This document shows, piece by piece, positions 60,170-63,668 of a stretch of 64,000 nt of DNA; within the stretch, counting starts at the first letter, position 1, and each line of letters starts with the position of its first letter. The position numbers and the translations under genes were made by a program. Below the pieces are notes generated by a model. It did not search any database. It saw only the letters and a program-made list of their open reading frames with translations, and had not been told where the DNA came from. Origin of the DNA: the human T2T-CHM13v2.0 reference genome, Homo sapiens; the NCBI RefSeq assembly GCF_009914755.1, contig NC_060935.1. One strand, written 5' to 3'.

Positions 60170-60821
60170 GATTGAAATGGACCACATGACTGTCTAAACC
60201 ACAGTATCACCATGATTGGTTTAGACTAATCAGGAATACACCCTGAGGCTAGAAAGGGGGCCAGCTTTCCTGAATATGGAATGATGAATGCCCCAACAAA
60301 ACCTACTTTCTTACAGTGAGGAAGAGGGGCAAAAGTTACTGGATAAGTAATCAACAGGGCTCCCTTCTCTGTAAAAATTCTCTCCTCATGCTCTTCTTAT
60401 AAAGATTAGATGACATGATATGCAATGGTTCCTCATAGAGAAACAAAGATAGAGCATCTTTTTTTTTTTTTTTTTTGAGACAGGGTCTTGCTCTGTTGCC
60501 CATGCTGAAGCGCAGTGGCATGATCATAGCTCACAATAGCATCTTTTTATTAGGTACTTACCATGTATATGCACTGTGCTAAAACTGTCAAATGCAGTAA
60601 AGGCATTACATGTGTTAGGTCACTACATCCATACGACACGCTAAGGAACAGGGATGTGAATCCTATTTTACAGATATTCCTGAAACATAGAGAAGTTAAG
60701 TGATTTACCCAAGGTCAAGCAGCTAGTAAGCAGTCAAGCCAGGTCTCAAACCAAAGTCTGTCTGATGCCATGATGCTCCTCTTTTTTAATTAACTAATCT
60801 TACTTTATTACATTCTAATTC

Positions 60822-61127
60822 TTTTTTTTTTTTTTTTTTTTTTTTTTGAGTGGAGTCTCGCTCTGTCACCCAGGCTGGAGTGCCGTGGCGCAATCTCGGC
60901 TCACTACAAGCACCGCCTCCCGGTTTCACACCATTCTCCTGCCTCAGTCTCCCGAGTAGCTGGGACTACAGGTGCCTGCCACCATGCCCGCCTAATTTTT
61001 TGTATTTTTAGTAGAGATGGGGTTTCACCATGTTAGCCAGGATGGTCTGAATCTCCTGACCTCGTGATCCGCCCACCTTGGCCTCCCAAAGTGCTGGGAT
61101 TACAGGCGTGAGCCACTGCACTCGGCC
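60822..61127 (-). mobile_element. AluY in the CNGA1 retrocopy 3'UTR
   Basis: TSD tacattctaattc (60809-60821 / 61128-61140). Confidence 0.95.
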
Positions 61128-61972
61128 TACATTCTAATTCTTTTAAAAATGGTTTCTCCAACATGATGTACAAGCTAATTTCTGGTTACTCTGAATATAT
61201 TTTATTCCTCAACAAGTCAAATTGCCTGAAAGCAAGGGATGCTTGTTTACTTTTATAAACACTATTACATAAAAAGAACATTATGTGAAAAAAGATACAG
61301 ATACTAATAAATTAGTCACTGTATGTCTTTGCACATTGTCTATTGTAAAACTTCCCAAGATATGATGATTCTTTAATCGTAGTACCTTGAATGTGAGTAT
61401 GTGGGCCTTGTGCCCTGAGCCTAAGCAGTTTCCTTATGGAAAAATTCCCTAGTTGAGTTTTCTTCTTCCAAATTACAATTGCCTTTAGTCACATGACCAA
61501 AAGGATCATGGGATGTGTCCTTGTTAATGACCAGCTTTTCACTCCTGTGTAGGAATCGTGGGCCCACTTTTCATTCCAGGTCCTTCGATATCTGAACATT
61601 CTGTGTCAACAAGCGAGATCAGATATTTCTCAGCTTTGGTTAATCTTTGCTTCAGTTTCTGCTGCATTGACTCATAGCCAGCCAGGATCCAGGCAAAACT
61701 TGTTTTCAGGAGTCTACTGACCCCTCCATTAGGATGGCCCCCTCTTCAAAATCTTCAGGCTCACTTCTGGCATCTGCAGTATTTATATCCACATTCATCT
61801 TTCATCAAGATTTGCTTCCCTTTCTCTTCCAGCAGAGCTTTGGCATCTGGGTACTCAGAGCTTCCATGAAGTCATCTTCTGAGAGACAGAACAAGTCTGA
61901 GTAGCCGACACTTTAAATATTTGCCATTCTTTGATTGCCAGTTCTGCTGCCTTTAATGATAATGCTGACCTC

Positions 61973-62266
61973 TCTGGGTGCGGTGGCTCACACCTGTAAT
62001 CCCAACACTTTGAGAGCCCAAGGTGGGCAGATCATGTGAGCCCAGGAGTTCTAGACCAGCCTGGGCAATGAGAGGAAACCCCATCTCTACAAAAAATACA
62101 AAACAACTAGCTGGGTATGGTGGCATGCACCTGTAGTCCCAGCTACTCGGGAGGCTGAGGTGAAGAATTGCTTGAGCCCGGGAGGTGGAGGTTGCAGTAA
62201 CCCAAGATCATGCCACTGTACTCCAACCTGGGCAATAGAGTGAGACTCTGTCTCAAAAAAAAAAAA
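61973..62266 (+). mobile_element. AluJb-like element in the CNGA1 retrocopy cyclic-nucleotide-binding domain
   Basis: TSD aatgctgacctc (61961-61972 / 62267-62278). Confidence 0.92.
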
Positions 62267-62416
62267 AATGCTGACCTCATCAAAGTAGCTGCCATCACTC
62301 AGTACCACAAACTGAGTGACTCCCTCATCTCATCATCTGCCACCATGACGAGTTTACCTCCTTTGATTACTTACGTCTCTCATACAATGTCCCCTTTCTC
62401 ACAAATGTAATCTCCA

Positions 62417-62729
62417 GGCTGGGTGCGGTGGCTCCATGCCTGTAATACCAGCACTTTGGGAGGCCAAGGCAGGAGGCTCGCTTGAGGCCAGGAGTTCAAG
62501 ACCAGCCTAGACATCATGGTGAAACCTCGTCTCTACAAAAAATACAAAATAATAATAATAATAATAATAACCAGGCATGGTGTCGCATGCCTGTAGTCTC
62601 AGCTACTCAGGGGACTGAGGCAGGAGAATCGCTTGAACCCAGGAGGCAAAAGTTGTAGTGAGCCGAGATCACACCACGGCACTCCAGCCTGGGTGACAGA
62701 GCGAGACTCCCATCAAAAAAAAAAAAAAA
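62417..62729 (+). mobile_element. old Alu (J/Sz-like) without TSD, at the CNGA1 deletion junction
   Basis: Flanked by non-contiguous CNGA1 segments. Confidence 0.92.
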
Positions 62730-62883
62730 GCCAATATTCTGGGTAATTACACTGAAGTTCATCAAAACAGGCCATCTCAGTAACCATAACCCAGGTGTAC
62801 ATTTAAGAGGTTCCGCCATGCAAAACAGCCAGTTGTAACATGTGTTTCCCAAGGGATCAATAAATGCAACTTCTTTCTTATCC

Positions 62884-63024
62884 AATTTATTATAAAGGAT
62901 ACAACTTAGGAATAGACAAGTGAAAGAAATGCATCATATGTAGGAATGGGGAGGAGCTTCCATGCCCTCTCCAAGTGTGCCACCCTCCGAGCACCTCGAT
63001 GTGTTCACCAGCCCAGAACATCAA
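62884..63024 (-). mobile_element. MER21-type LTR segment forming the 5' end of the CNGA1 retrocopy
   Basis: Minus strand ...ggtgaacacatcgaggtgctcggagggtggc...gagagggcatggaagctcc...gttgtatcctttataataaa resembles the MER21 consensus as I recall it. It lies inside the retrocopy's TSDs. Confidence 0.7.
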
Positions 63025-63668
63025 CCATGGTGCCCTCTTAATCTCTCTACACTCTTCCCACAGTTGTGCATCCAATGTTAACTTCTTTCCTGTTAATCTC
63101 CAGCACCTGGTACAGATAGCAAGCATTCATTAAATATTTTTTAAATGAGTACATGGTAACAGCTGACATTTCTGCAACCATTATGGTTTATAAAGAACTT
63201 TTTTCTGAACTCAGGATTTTCTCCCCCAGATCTGGTCCTCTTTCATGGCTTCTTCTCCTAGCAAATGGCACCGACATCTATGCAGTCACACAAACCAGAA
63301 AACAGAGTCACCAACCCCCCTCTTTCCATTCCACACATCATATCCAGCCCATGACCAAGAGCATCTCTCACATCTGTGCATTTCTCTCTCTCCTCCATGA
63401 CTTCAGGCCAAGGGATGATTATGTTCTCGCCTGGGCTGTTGCAGGAGCTTCCTGCCTGGTCTTCCCATCGCAGAGAACCTATTTCCAGACTGTTCTCTGT
63501 GCTGCAGACACCAGGTTCTGACTGGGTCACCTGCCTACTTAAAACCCTTAATGTTCACTCCTTTTGGGATAAAGCCCAAACTCCTTAACGCAGCCTGGCC
63601 TCTGCCTGCCTCCCTTGCCTCATCTTACCAACAATCCTCTCTCTTTCACACTCTACAGCCACCCCAAC

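What the first reader, a model, noticed from the sequence alone, without database searches (positions are those of the whole stretch)
60768..63039. Fossil of an LTR-promoted, N-terminally truncated CNGA1 mRNA
Seen: one pair of TSDs (60768-60783 / 63025-63039, at a TT/AAGA L1-endonuclease site near the end of a MIR) encloses, on the minus strand, about 140 nt of MER21-type LTR, then CNGA1 coding sequence starting G-GAT-AAG-AAA-GAA-GTT at 62883, then a 3'UTR, AATAAA and an A-remnant. The LTR piece was therefore part of the retrotransposed RNA. Recalled: (a) CNGA1's 108-nt S1 exon starts at G-GAG-AAG-AAA-GAA; (b) the next intron, in the IAR|ACF codon, is absent here, so the copy is processed; (c) the MER21 consensus has GT donors right after ...tataataaa(c/t)tg; (d) the copy begins near ...ggtgaacac, where the MER21-derived placental CYP19A1 exon I.1 starts. 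Inference: an intronic MER21 LTR in ancestral CNGA1 drove a spliced transcript lacking the N-terminal exons, and it was expressed in germline or early embryo. That would explain how a largely rod-restricted gene left a retrocopy. A strong-context ATG (GGGCATGG, 62963) is in frame with CNGA1 but hits a TGA at 62936 in this decayed copy. The junction is one G shorter than a perfect splice.
Basis: partly seen in the sequence, partly recalled or inferred. Interest (0 to 1): 0.9.

Follow-up and report, generated by a model that had tools for sequence, protein, structure and literature searches.

The report
Retrocopy of an LTR-started CNGA1 transcript
This is a decayed, roughly 80-100-million-year-old reverse-transcribed copy of a messenger RNA that appears to have started inside a retroviral LTR and been spliced onto an internal exon of the rod-channel gene CNGA1, an isoform whose driving LTR can no longer be found in the human gene.

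Summary
A 15/16-nt target-site duplication at a TT/AAGA site (63039-63025 / 60783-60768) encloses, on the minus strand:
- 141 nt of an old LTR family (63024-62884);
- intron-less CNGA1 sequence starting at the first base of the gene's 108-nt exon (62883);
- the CNGA1 3'UTR with AATAAA and a short A-run.

Three later Alus and a ~1-kb internal gap interrupt it.

In other genomic copies of the LTR family, the piece starts 24-28 nt after a CATAAAA-type box. It ends where copies carry a GT(A/G)A splice donor. So a spliced, probably LTR-initiated LTR-CNGA1 mRNA was retrotransposed by L1.

The family is related to the LTR that holds CYP19A1 placental exon I.1, called MER21A in print. No repeat library was available to name it properly.

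Not supported: human CNGA1 has no sense-oriented copy upstream of that exon. Its only clear copy is antisense and downstream. The in-frame LTR ATG is not a family property. The "missing G" need not be missing.

Unexplained: a second, inverted fragment of the same family lies 645 nt away, outside the duplication.

Verdict: a real, neat single case of a known kind, of moderate interest.

The parts
63025..63039 (-). 5' copy of the target-site duplication (AAGAGGGCACCATGG), preceded by TT (63041-63040), giving a TT/AAGA L1-endonuclease-type site
   Evidence: It aligns to the 3' copy with 14 matches, 1 mismatch and 1 gap; 10 of 5000 shuffles reach that score.
62884..63024 (-). LTR-derived first exon (141 nt). 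It starts 24-28 nt after the family's CATAAAA-type box and ends at the family's GT donor position, just after the LTR's AATAAA.
   Evidence: All 37 family copies match at 69-84% identity. The box distance was measured in 19 of 36 copies. The donor is present in 10 of the 19 copies with the motif.
62736..62883 (-). CNGA1 108-nt exon (from its first base) joined without an intron to the start of the next exon (..ACFDELQ..EYW..)
   Evidence: Identity is 83.7% over 104 nt to C4:47909389-47909286 and 86.5% over 37 nt to C4:47908110-47908074.
62420..62735 (+). Alu with no detectable TSD, sitting exactly where about 1 kb of CNGA1 mRNA sequence is missing
   Evidence: No flanking direct repeat was found. 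CNGA1 homology jumps from C4:47908061 to C4:47904234.
62269..62419 (-). CNGA1 last-exon segment from the cyclic-nucleotide-binding region
   Evidence: 84.5% identity over 142 nt to C4:47904234-47904093.
61973..62266 (+). Alu insertion with a 12-nt exact TSD (61961-61972 / 62267-62278)
   Evidence: (family D13).
61130..61972 (-). CNGA1 C-terminal coding sequence and most of the 3'UTR, decayed
   Evidence: 80.5% identity over 835 nt to C4:47904102-47903246. It is the only other match in the genome.
60826..61127 (-). Alu insertion in the 3'UTR with a 17-nt exact TSD (60809-60825 / 61128-61144)
   Evidence: (family D9).
60784..60825 (-). End of the CNGA1 3'UTR with AATAAA (60809-60804) and a 4-A poly(A) remnant (60787-60784)
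   Evidence: 28 of 33 aligned positions (84.8%) match C4:47903258-47903226.
60768..60783 (-). 3' copy of the target-site duplication (AAGAGGAGCATCATGG)
   Evidence: It is itself part of the old dispersed repeat that forms the downstream flank.

Best explanation
An L1-mediated processed pseudogene was made from a chimeric, spliced mRNA.

**Proposed sequence of events**
1. Transcription started at the promoter of a then-young, sense-oriented LTR of a MER21-related family. This LTR lay somewhere upstream of CNGA1's 108-nt exon.
2. The 141-nt LTR exon was spliced from the LTR's own GT donor, which sits just after its AATAAA.
3. It was joined directly to the normal acceptor of the 108-nt exon, skipping every upstream coding exon.
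4. The mRNA continued through the normal downstream exons to the normal CNGA1 poly(A) site.
5. It was reverse-transcribed and inserted by L1 at a TT/AAGA site on what is now chromosome 11.

This must have happened in germline or early-embryo cells, because the copy is inherited.

**Shown**
- The TSD, poly(A) signal and A remnant.
- Absence of the intron.
- The LTR identity of the 141 nt.
- The three landmark coincidences: box-to-start spacing, LTR donor, exon acceptor.

**Inferred**
- That the LTR was the promoter rather than an internal exon.
- That it sat inside CNGA1.
- That it was later lost or never fixed.
- That the LTR is what gave a mostly rod-expressed gene its germline expression.

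The copy has since decayed: stops, frameshifts, three Alus and a ~1-kb gap. Nothing suggests a present function.
For: **L1 hallmarks**
- A 15/16-nt TSD at TT/AAGA (p about 0.002 by shuffling).
- AATAAA plus an A-run at the exact end of CNGA1 3'UTR homology.

**Processed copy**
- The 108-nt exon is joined to the next exon with no intron.

**LTR side**
- The 141 nt match all 37 of 37 family copies.
- The projected start is 24-28 nt downstream of a [CT]A[TC]AAAA box in the 19 of 36 copies where the box is recognisable, with mode 27-28. A CCAAT-type motif lies further upstream in most copies.
- The piece ends where 10 of 19 copies have GT[AG]A.

**Gene side**
- Homology starts at the first base after the CTAG| acceptor.
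- NCBI's pseudogene annotation starts at 62882.

**Orientation**
- The orientation is the promoter-sense one. The related LTR at CYP19A1 is transcribed in the same orientation and carries exon I.1. PMC4419796 (passages read) names MER21A as the CYP19A1 placental LTR.

**Age**
- K2P is 0.216 to the parent gene over 1,151 nt.
- Copy-to-copy identity in the family is about 70-76%.
- So the LTR family was probably young when the mRNA was made (inference).

**Uniqueness**
- This is the only CNGA1 retrocopy in the genome: 2 of 2 candidates were the window itself and the parent gene.
Against: - **No source LTR.** No sense-oriented family copy exists in C4:47900001-48000000. Searches used 37 single copies (E<=0.01), 36 copies (E<=1e-5) and the piece itself (best sense hit E 0.63).
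- **Only antisense copies.** The only clear copy (47905539-47907016) is antisense and downstream of the exon.
- **Ambiguous gene-side junction.** The upstream exon ends in GATAAGAAAGAAG and the 108-nt exon starts GGAGAAGAAAGAAG. The retrocopy's GGATAAGAAAGAAGTT could therefore also be read as upstream-exon end plus a 15-nt slip deletion. That reading needs an extra event and leaves no acceptor.
- **Box spacing.** The 24-28 nt distance from box to start rests on back-projection in 19 of 36 copies. The other 17 lacked a recognisable box.
- **Second fragment nearby.** A second, inverted fragment of the same family lies 645 nt away, outside the TSD (63669-63783). By my rough estimate from the candidate counts, chance alone gives this about 0.05-0.3% of the time. 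I have no mechanism for it.
- **Name untested.** No RepeatMasker or Dfam run was possible, so the family name is unverified.
Confidence: 0.75

Rival explanations
1. The chimeric spliced LTR-CNGA1 RNA was real, but the LTR was not its promoter. The LTR segment was an internal (exonised) exon, or part of a longer upstream transcript. The retrocopy is simply 5'-truncated inside it, as L1-made copies often are.
For: - 5' truncation is common in L1-mediated copies (established knowledge).
- Box-to-start spacing could be measured in only 19 of 36 copies.
- No promoter test was possible.
Against: - The 5' end falls 24-28 nt after the CATAAAA-type box. For a random truncation point, that is a coincidence.
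- Copies show no conserved AG acceptor just upstream that would define an internal exon. This was judged by eye on the alignment, not tested formally.
- The related CYP19A1 LTR does act as a first exon in the same orientation (PMC4419796 passages).
Confidence: 0.1
2. L1 reverse transcriptase switched templates during cDNA synthesis, from a CNGA1 RNA to an unrelated LTR-containing RNA. That would make a chimeric retrocopy without any LTR-CNGA1 splicing and without an LTR in CNGA1.
For: - No source LTR is present in human CNGA1.
- Template-switch chimeras are a known product of L1 and of LTR-element reverse transcription (figure legend in PMC5408686; other examples recalled).
- The gene-side junction is slightly ambiguous.
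Against: - It needs the CNGA1 RNA to end exactly at an exon's first base.
- It also needs the switch to land exactly at the LTR's GT donor position. These are two independent coincidences.
- It needs a third coincidence for the LTR RNA's start after the box.
Confidence: 0.06
3. Two independent events occurred. A fragment of the LTR already lay at this chr11 site, and a CNGA1 retrocopy that happened to be truncated at the exon start landed next to it. This is the "pseudogene next to LTR" arrangement described for mouse ERVL LTRs.
For: - Another fragment of the same family lies 645 nt away, so the family was present in this neighbourhood.
- Franke et al. 2017 (PMC5538554, passages read) describe pseudogenes integrating beside pre-existing LTRs.
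Against: - The TSD encloses the LTR piece together with CNGA1.
- The rest of the LTR is not found on either side.
- The two local fragments overlap by about 80 nt and are inverted, so they are not halves of one LTR.
- The piece's ends coincide with the start and donor landmarks.
Confidence: 0.04

Closest known systems
Dicer(O): MT-C LTR in intron 6 of mouse Dicer1, giving an oocyte-specific, N-terminally truncated isoform (Flemr 2013, seen here only as cited and discussed in passages of Franke et al. 2017, PMC5538554)
   Same: A sense LTR inside a gene supplies the promoter and first exon. It splices to a downstream host exon and gives a germline-expressed transcript lacking the N-terminal exons.
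   Different: Dicer(O) is a living, functional isoform whose LTR is still in place. Here only a dead retrocopy of the transcript survives. The source LTR is not found in human CNGA1, and no coding capacity can be shown.
CYP19A1 placental exon I.1 in a MER21A LTR (PMC4419796 passages; I.1 primer in PMC12945251)
   Same: It is a related LTR: 23 of 36 family copies hit it. It shares the CCAAT-type motif, the CATAAAA box and the ..GAACAC.. region, and it is transcribed in the same orientation as a first exon.
   Different: - It is a different subfamily; only about 70-160-nt blocks align.
- It uses a different donor, about 55 nt upstream of the one used here.
- It lies upstream of the whole coding region, so the protein is not truncated.
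- MER21A is called primate-specific in PMC4419796, whereas the family here looks much older.
Ordinary L1-mediated processed pseudogenes used as records of old transcript forms, and retrocopies of chimeric read-through mRNAs such as PIPSL
   Same: L1 copies whatever polyadenylated RNA is present in the germline. The copy therefore preserves splice forms and fusion junctions.
   Different: Here the 5' partner is an LTR-derived first exon rather than another gene's exons. The transcript form is not known from the living gene.
"Pseudogene recycling" by ERVL LTRs (Franke et al. 2017, PMC5538554, passages read)
   Same: An LTR lies next to a processed pseudogene in the same orientation.
   Different: There the LTR and the pseudogene arrive by separate insertions. 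Here the LTR piece is inside the pseudogene's TSD and is joined at splice sites, so it travelled in the RNA.

Membership tests
L1-mediated processed pseudogene | Introns of the parent gene are absent | tested here: met
   The 108-nt exon joins the next exon directly. The parent gene has about 1.17 kb of intron there.
L1-mediated processed pseudogene | Ends at the parent's poly(A) site with an A-tail | tested here: met
   Homology runs to about 14 nt past AATAAA, followed by 4 A's. Only a remnant of the tail is left.
L1-mediated processed pseudogene | 7-20-nt target-site duplication at a TT/AAAA-like site | tested here: met
   A 15/16-nt TSD, reached by 10 of 5000 shuffles, at TT/AAGA.
L1-mediated processed pseudogene | Empty site in outgroup genomes | not testable with these tools
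   Only the human genome is held. A single uninterrupted copy of the flanking repeat (L057) has one copy of the duplicated stretch.
LTR-initiated chimeric gene transcript | Transcript 5' end lies a promoter-like distance after the LTR's TATA-type box, in sense orientation | tested here: met
   24-28 nt in the 19 of 36 copies with a recognisable box. Orientation matches CYP19A1 exon I.1.
LTR-initiated chimeric gene transcript | LTR part ends at a GT splice donor | tested here: met
   GT[AG]A occurs at that position in 10 of the 19 copies with the motif, as seen in the alignment.
LTR-initiated chimeric gene transcript | Joined to a genuine acceptor of the host gene | tested here: met
   Homology starts at the first base after CTAG| of the 108-nt exon. 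There is a small ambiguity from a 13-nt near-repeat in the upstream exon.
LTR-initiated chimeric gene transcript | A sense-oriented source LTR upstream of the acceptor exon in the host gene | tested here: not met
   None in C4:47900001-48000000 of the human genome. Only antisense copies are present. Other species were not testable.
LTR-initiated chimeric gene transcript | Direct transcript evidence (CAGE, splice reads) | not testable with these tools
   No expression data are held.
MER21 LTR family (ERVL-type) | Classification against the Repbase/Dfam consensus | not testable with these tools
No repeat library is held.
MER21 LTR family (ERVL-type) | Homology to a copy that the literature calls MER21A (the CYP19A1 exon I.1 LTR) | tested here: inconclusive
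   23 of 36 copies hit it, but only in blocks of about 40-160 nt at 61-86% identity. The 141-nt piece itself gives only E 2.8. It is related, but not the same subfamily.

The most novel reading that the evidence does not exclude
The retrocopy is the only surviving trace of a sense-oriented ERV/LTR insertion in the ancestral CNGA1 gene. That insertion drove a germline, N-terminally truncated transcript and was then purged or never fixed. This would fit the fact that only antisense copies of the family remain in the gene today. If so, processed pseudogenes can archive lost, probably deleterious, transposon insertion alleles and their chimeric transcripts from about 80-100 million years ago.
Probability: 0.4. 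Interest if true: 0.6.

Novelty: new member of a known kind. Interest (0 to 1): 0.45.

Why it matters
- It is a clean, checkable case of a processed pseudogene preserving a transcript form that the living gene no longer makes: an LTR first exon spliced onto an internal exon.
- It offers a concrete reason why a mostly photoreceptor-expressed gene left a germline retrocopy.
- Because the source LTR is absent from human CNGA1, it suggests retrocopies can record transposon insertions that selection later removed.
- A systematic search for transposon-derived 5' ends inside the TSDs of processed pseudogenes could use this as a template.
- It has no evident bearing on present CNGA1 function or disease.

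Tried and rejected
- **Flanking repeat, local search.** Looking for copies of the flanking repeat that span both flanks among the fetched loci gave 0 hits for the upstream flank and 5 for the downstream flank. MAFFT misplaced the short upstream flank.
- **Flanking repeat, pairwise tests.** The upstream flank alone is not above shuffles. "MIR contiguity" therefore rests on the downstream flank plus the TSD.
- **Flanks of the second LTR fragment.** Genome searches with these flanks found only themselves. A local BLAST also gave nothing useful. My impression that they are L2-like is recall only.
- **Kinship of the two local LTR fragments.**
  - They share 5 rare columns, one of which lies past the junction. 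Only 3 of 665 other pairs reach 5.
  - However, the retro piece also shares 4 rare columns with each of three unrelated copies.
  - The ranks are 2 of 36 and 14 of 36.
  - I conclude there is no clear special kinship.
- **Twin priming, or one LTR split by an inversion.** Rejected, because the second fragment is outside the TSD and overlaps the first by about 80 nt.
- **LTR ATG as a start codon for a truncated channel.** Rejected as a family property.
- **Literature.**
  - 'CNGA1' + 'LTR' + 'alternative promoter': 0 papers.
  - 'CNGA1' + 'pseudogene': 46 papers, 10 listed, 2 checked by passages, none about this locus.
  - Two broader searches found no report of this case.
  - The library lacks most subscription journals.
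Full report
**What is there**

Read on the minus strand, the stretch 63039-60768 is bounded by AAGAGGGCACCATGG (63039-63025) and AAGAGGAGCATCATGG (60783-60768). 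These align with 14 matches, one mismatch and one gap. With 25-nt windows fixed at the two boundaries, 10 of 5000 shuffles reach that score. TT precedes the 5' copy, so the target reads TT/AAGA.

The 3' copy follows AATAAA (60809-60804), about 14 more bases of CNGA1 3'UTR homology, and four A's. Three Alus were inserted later:
- Two have exact TSDs of 12 and 17 nt (families D13 and D9).
- The third (62420-62735) has none. It sits exactly where about 1 kb of CNGA1 mRNA sequence is missing.

**The CNGA1 part**

The human genome that holds the window could be searched. A 295-nt query across the junction hit C4:47909286-47909389 with query positions 142-247 at 82%. The next 43 nt hit about 1.2 kb further down the gene.

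The genomic sequence shows CTAG|GGAGAAGAAAGAAG... ...ATTGCCAG|GTGT. This is an exon of exactly 108 nt (47909389-47909282). The next exon starts AG|AGCATGTTTTGATG.

Homology begins at window 62883, the exon's first base. NCBI's pseudogene annotation begins at 62882.

At protein level the exon starts at residue 149 of the 690-residue CNGA1 chain 7o4h_A. The transcript therefore lacked the codons for about the first 148 residues.

Over 1,151 aligned nt the copy is 81.6% identical to the parent gene, K2P 0.216. With usual mammalian neutral rates (my estimate, not a tool result) that implies roughly 80-100 million years. It is the only CNGA1 retrocopy in the genome: 2 of 2 candidates were the window itself and the parent gene.

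**The 141 nt upstream (63024-62884)**

These bases belong to a dispersed repeat:
- 374 first-look candidates with the short query (40 scored, 74-80% identity).
- 3365 first-look candidates with an 851-nt copy as query (40 scored, 69-76% identity).

Copies share about 750 nt, and the 141 nt lie in the middle. All 37 extracted copies match the piece at 69-84% identity, median 73%. I compared copies only and built no consensus.

Three landmarks stand out.

1. **Start.** Upstream of the piece, most copies carry a CCAAT-type motif and then a CATAAAA-type box. Projecting the piece's first base onto each copy puts it 24-28 nt after the box's first base, with mode 27-28. This could be measured in the 19 of 36 copies where the box is recognisable; the other 17 lacked one.
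2. **End.** The piece ends just after the LTR's AATAAA, where copies read ..CTG|GTAA.. or ..C(A/T)|GTAA.. GT[AG]A occurs within 5 nt in 10 of the 19 copies in which the motif was found.
3. **Join.** The piece is joined to the exon's first base.

Some copies have a single G at the donor.

**Family name**

No repeat library was available. I located CYP19A1 through its P450 exons at C15:49.02 Mb and fetched 60 kb upstream. An LTR there was hit by 23 of 36 family copies, in the gene's orientation.

It contains the string of the published exon I.1 primer (PMC12945251, passage read). PMC4419796 (passages read) names MER21A as the CYP19A1 placental LTR and calls MER21A primate-specific.

The two LTRs share the CCAAT-type motif, the CATAAAA box and the ..GAACAC.. 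region. Otherwise they align only in blocks, and exon I.1 uses a different donor. So "MER21-related, older subfamily" is as far as the evidence goes. The exact I.1 start site was not checked.

**The source LTR**

I searched 100 kb, C4:47900001-48000000. By my recalled hg38 coordinates this covers the whole gene and about 16 kb upstream. Queries were the piece itself and 36-37 single family copies, with sensitive scoring.
- The only clear copy lies at 47905539-47907016 on the plus strand. That is antisense to CNGA1 and in the intron before the last exon. All 36 queries hit it.
- A weak antisense bit lies at 47940717-47940793 (E 0.012).
- The best sense-strand hit has E 0.63.
- The intron directly upstream of the 108-nt exon is 1,029 nt and holds nothing.

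I do not take it as refuting the splice origin. The retrocopy is old. Sense-oriented intronic LTRs are known to be selected against (established knowledge). And the junction evidence is independent of the source's survival.

**Weak points**

- The mRNA has a near-repeat: the upstream exon ends ..GATAAGAAAGAAGA and the 108-nt exon starts GGAGAAGAAAGAAG. The retrocopy's GGATAAGAAAGAAGTT could be the exon start with one substitution, which is my reading. It could also be the upstream exon's last 13 nt followed by a 15-nt slip deletion. That second reading needs an extra event and gives no acceptor.
- The LTR ATG (62963) is in frame in today's sequence but meets TGA at 62936. Among 8 copies with both ATG and donor, only 2 give an open frame in the right phase. 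Coding capacity of the chimera is therefore unknown.
- A second fragment of the same family lies at 63669-63783 on the plus strand. It is inverted, 645 nt from the retrocopy and outside the TSD.
  - It continues about 26 nt past the donor position, so it is genomic-type and not copied from the spliced piece.
  - These are the only two family fragments in the 64-kb window.
  - Both hold the exact 20-mer that has 943 places with up to 2 mismatches genome-wide, against 119 for the control.
  - A shared-rare-variant test gave no clear special kinship.
  - I cannot explain the proximity. It cannot be the other half of one LTR, because the two fragments overlap by about 80 nt.

**Rivals**

- A pre-existing LTR fragment beside an independently inserted retrocopy would need four things to be chance: the TSD, the exon-start truncation, the donor coincidence and the start coincidence.
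- A reverse-transcriptase template switch needs the last three to be chance.
- A 5'-truncated copy of a transcript in which the LTR was an internal exon needs only the start coincidence, so it is the strongest rival.

**Comparison and verdict**

This works like known LTR-promoted, N-terminally truncated germline isoforms such as Dicer(O), discussed in PMC5538554 (passages read). It also resembles the related CYP19A1 LTR first exon. Here, though, it is preserved only as an L1-made fossil.

Retrocopies as records of old or chimeric transcripts are known (recalled). I found no report of this case:
- 0 papers.
- 10 of 46 papers listed, 2 checked by passages.
- broader searches, nothing relevant.

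It is a new member of a known kind. The anatomy is well supported. The location and fate of the source LTR remain open.

Noticed in passing
window 63669-63783 (+ strand): A second, inverted fragment of the same LTR family lies 645 nt from the retrocopy's 5' end and outside its TSD. It is unspliced-type and runs about 26 nt past the donor position. It is the only other family fragment in the window. The proximity is unexplained.
   Followed up: partly
G000 C4:47905539-47907016 (loci L011; CNGA1 intron before the last exon): An antisense copy of the same LTR family, with an Alu inside it, sits in the parent gene. All 36 family queries hit it. It is downstream of the 108-nt exon, so it cannot be the source.
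   Followed up: partly
window 62420-62735: This Alu has no detectable TSD and sits exactly at a ~1-kb gap in the retrocopy, between ..EYW.. and the cyclic-nucleotide-binding region. The other two Alus have exact TSDs. This suggests an Alu-associated deletion.
   Followed up: partly
G000 C4:47910419-47910535 and 47909389 (CNGA1 upstream exon end and 108-nt exon start): The K/E-rich upstream exon ends in a 13-nt string that nearly repeats the start of the 108-nt exon. This makes the first 13-15 nt of CNGA1 homology in the retrocopy formally ambiguous.
   Followed up: yes
L054:6263-6460 (minus strand; G000 C15 about 49146263-49146460): CYP19A1 exon I.1, identified by a published primer, lies in an LTR that shares the CCAAT-type motif, the CATAAAA box and the GAACAC region with the family here. 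It splices from a different GT, about 55 nt upstream of the family's usual donor position.
   Followed up: partly
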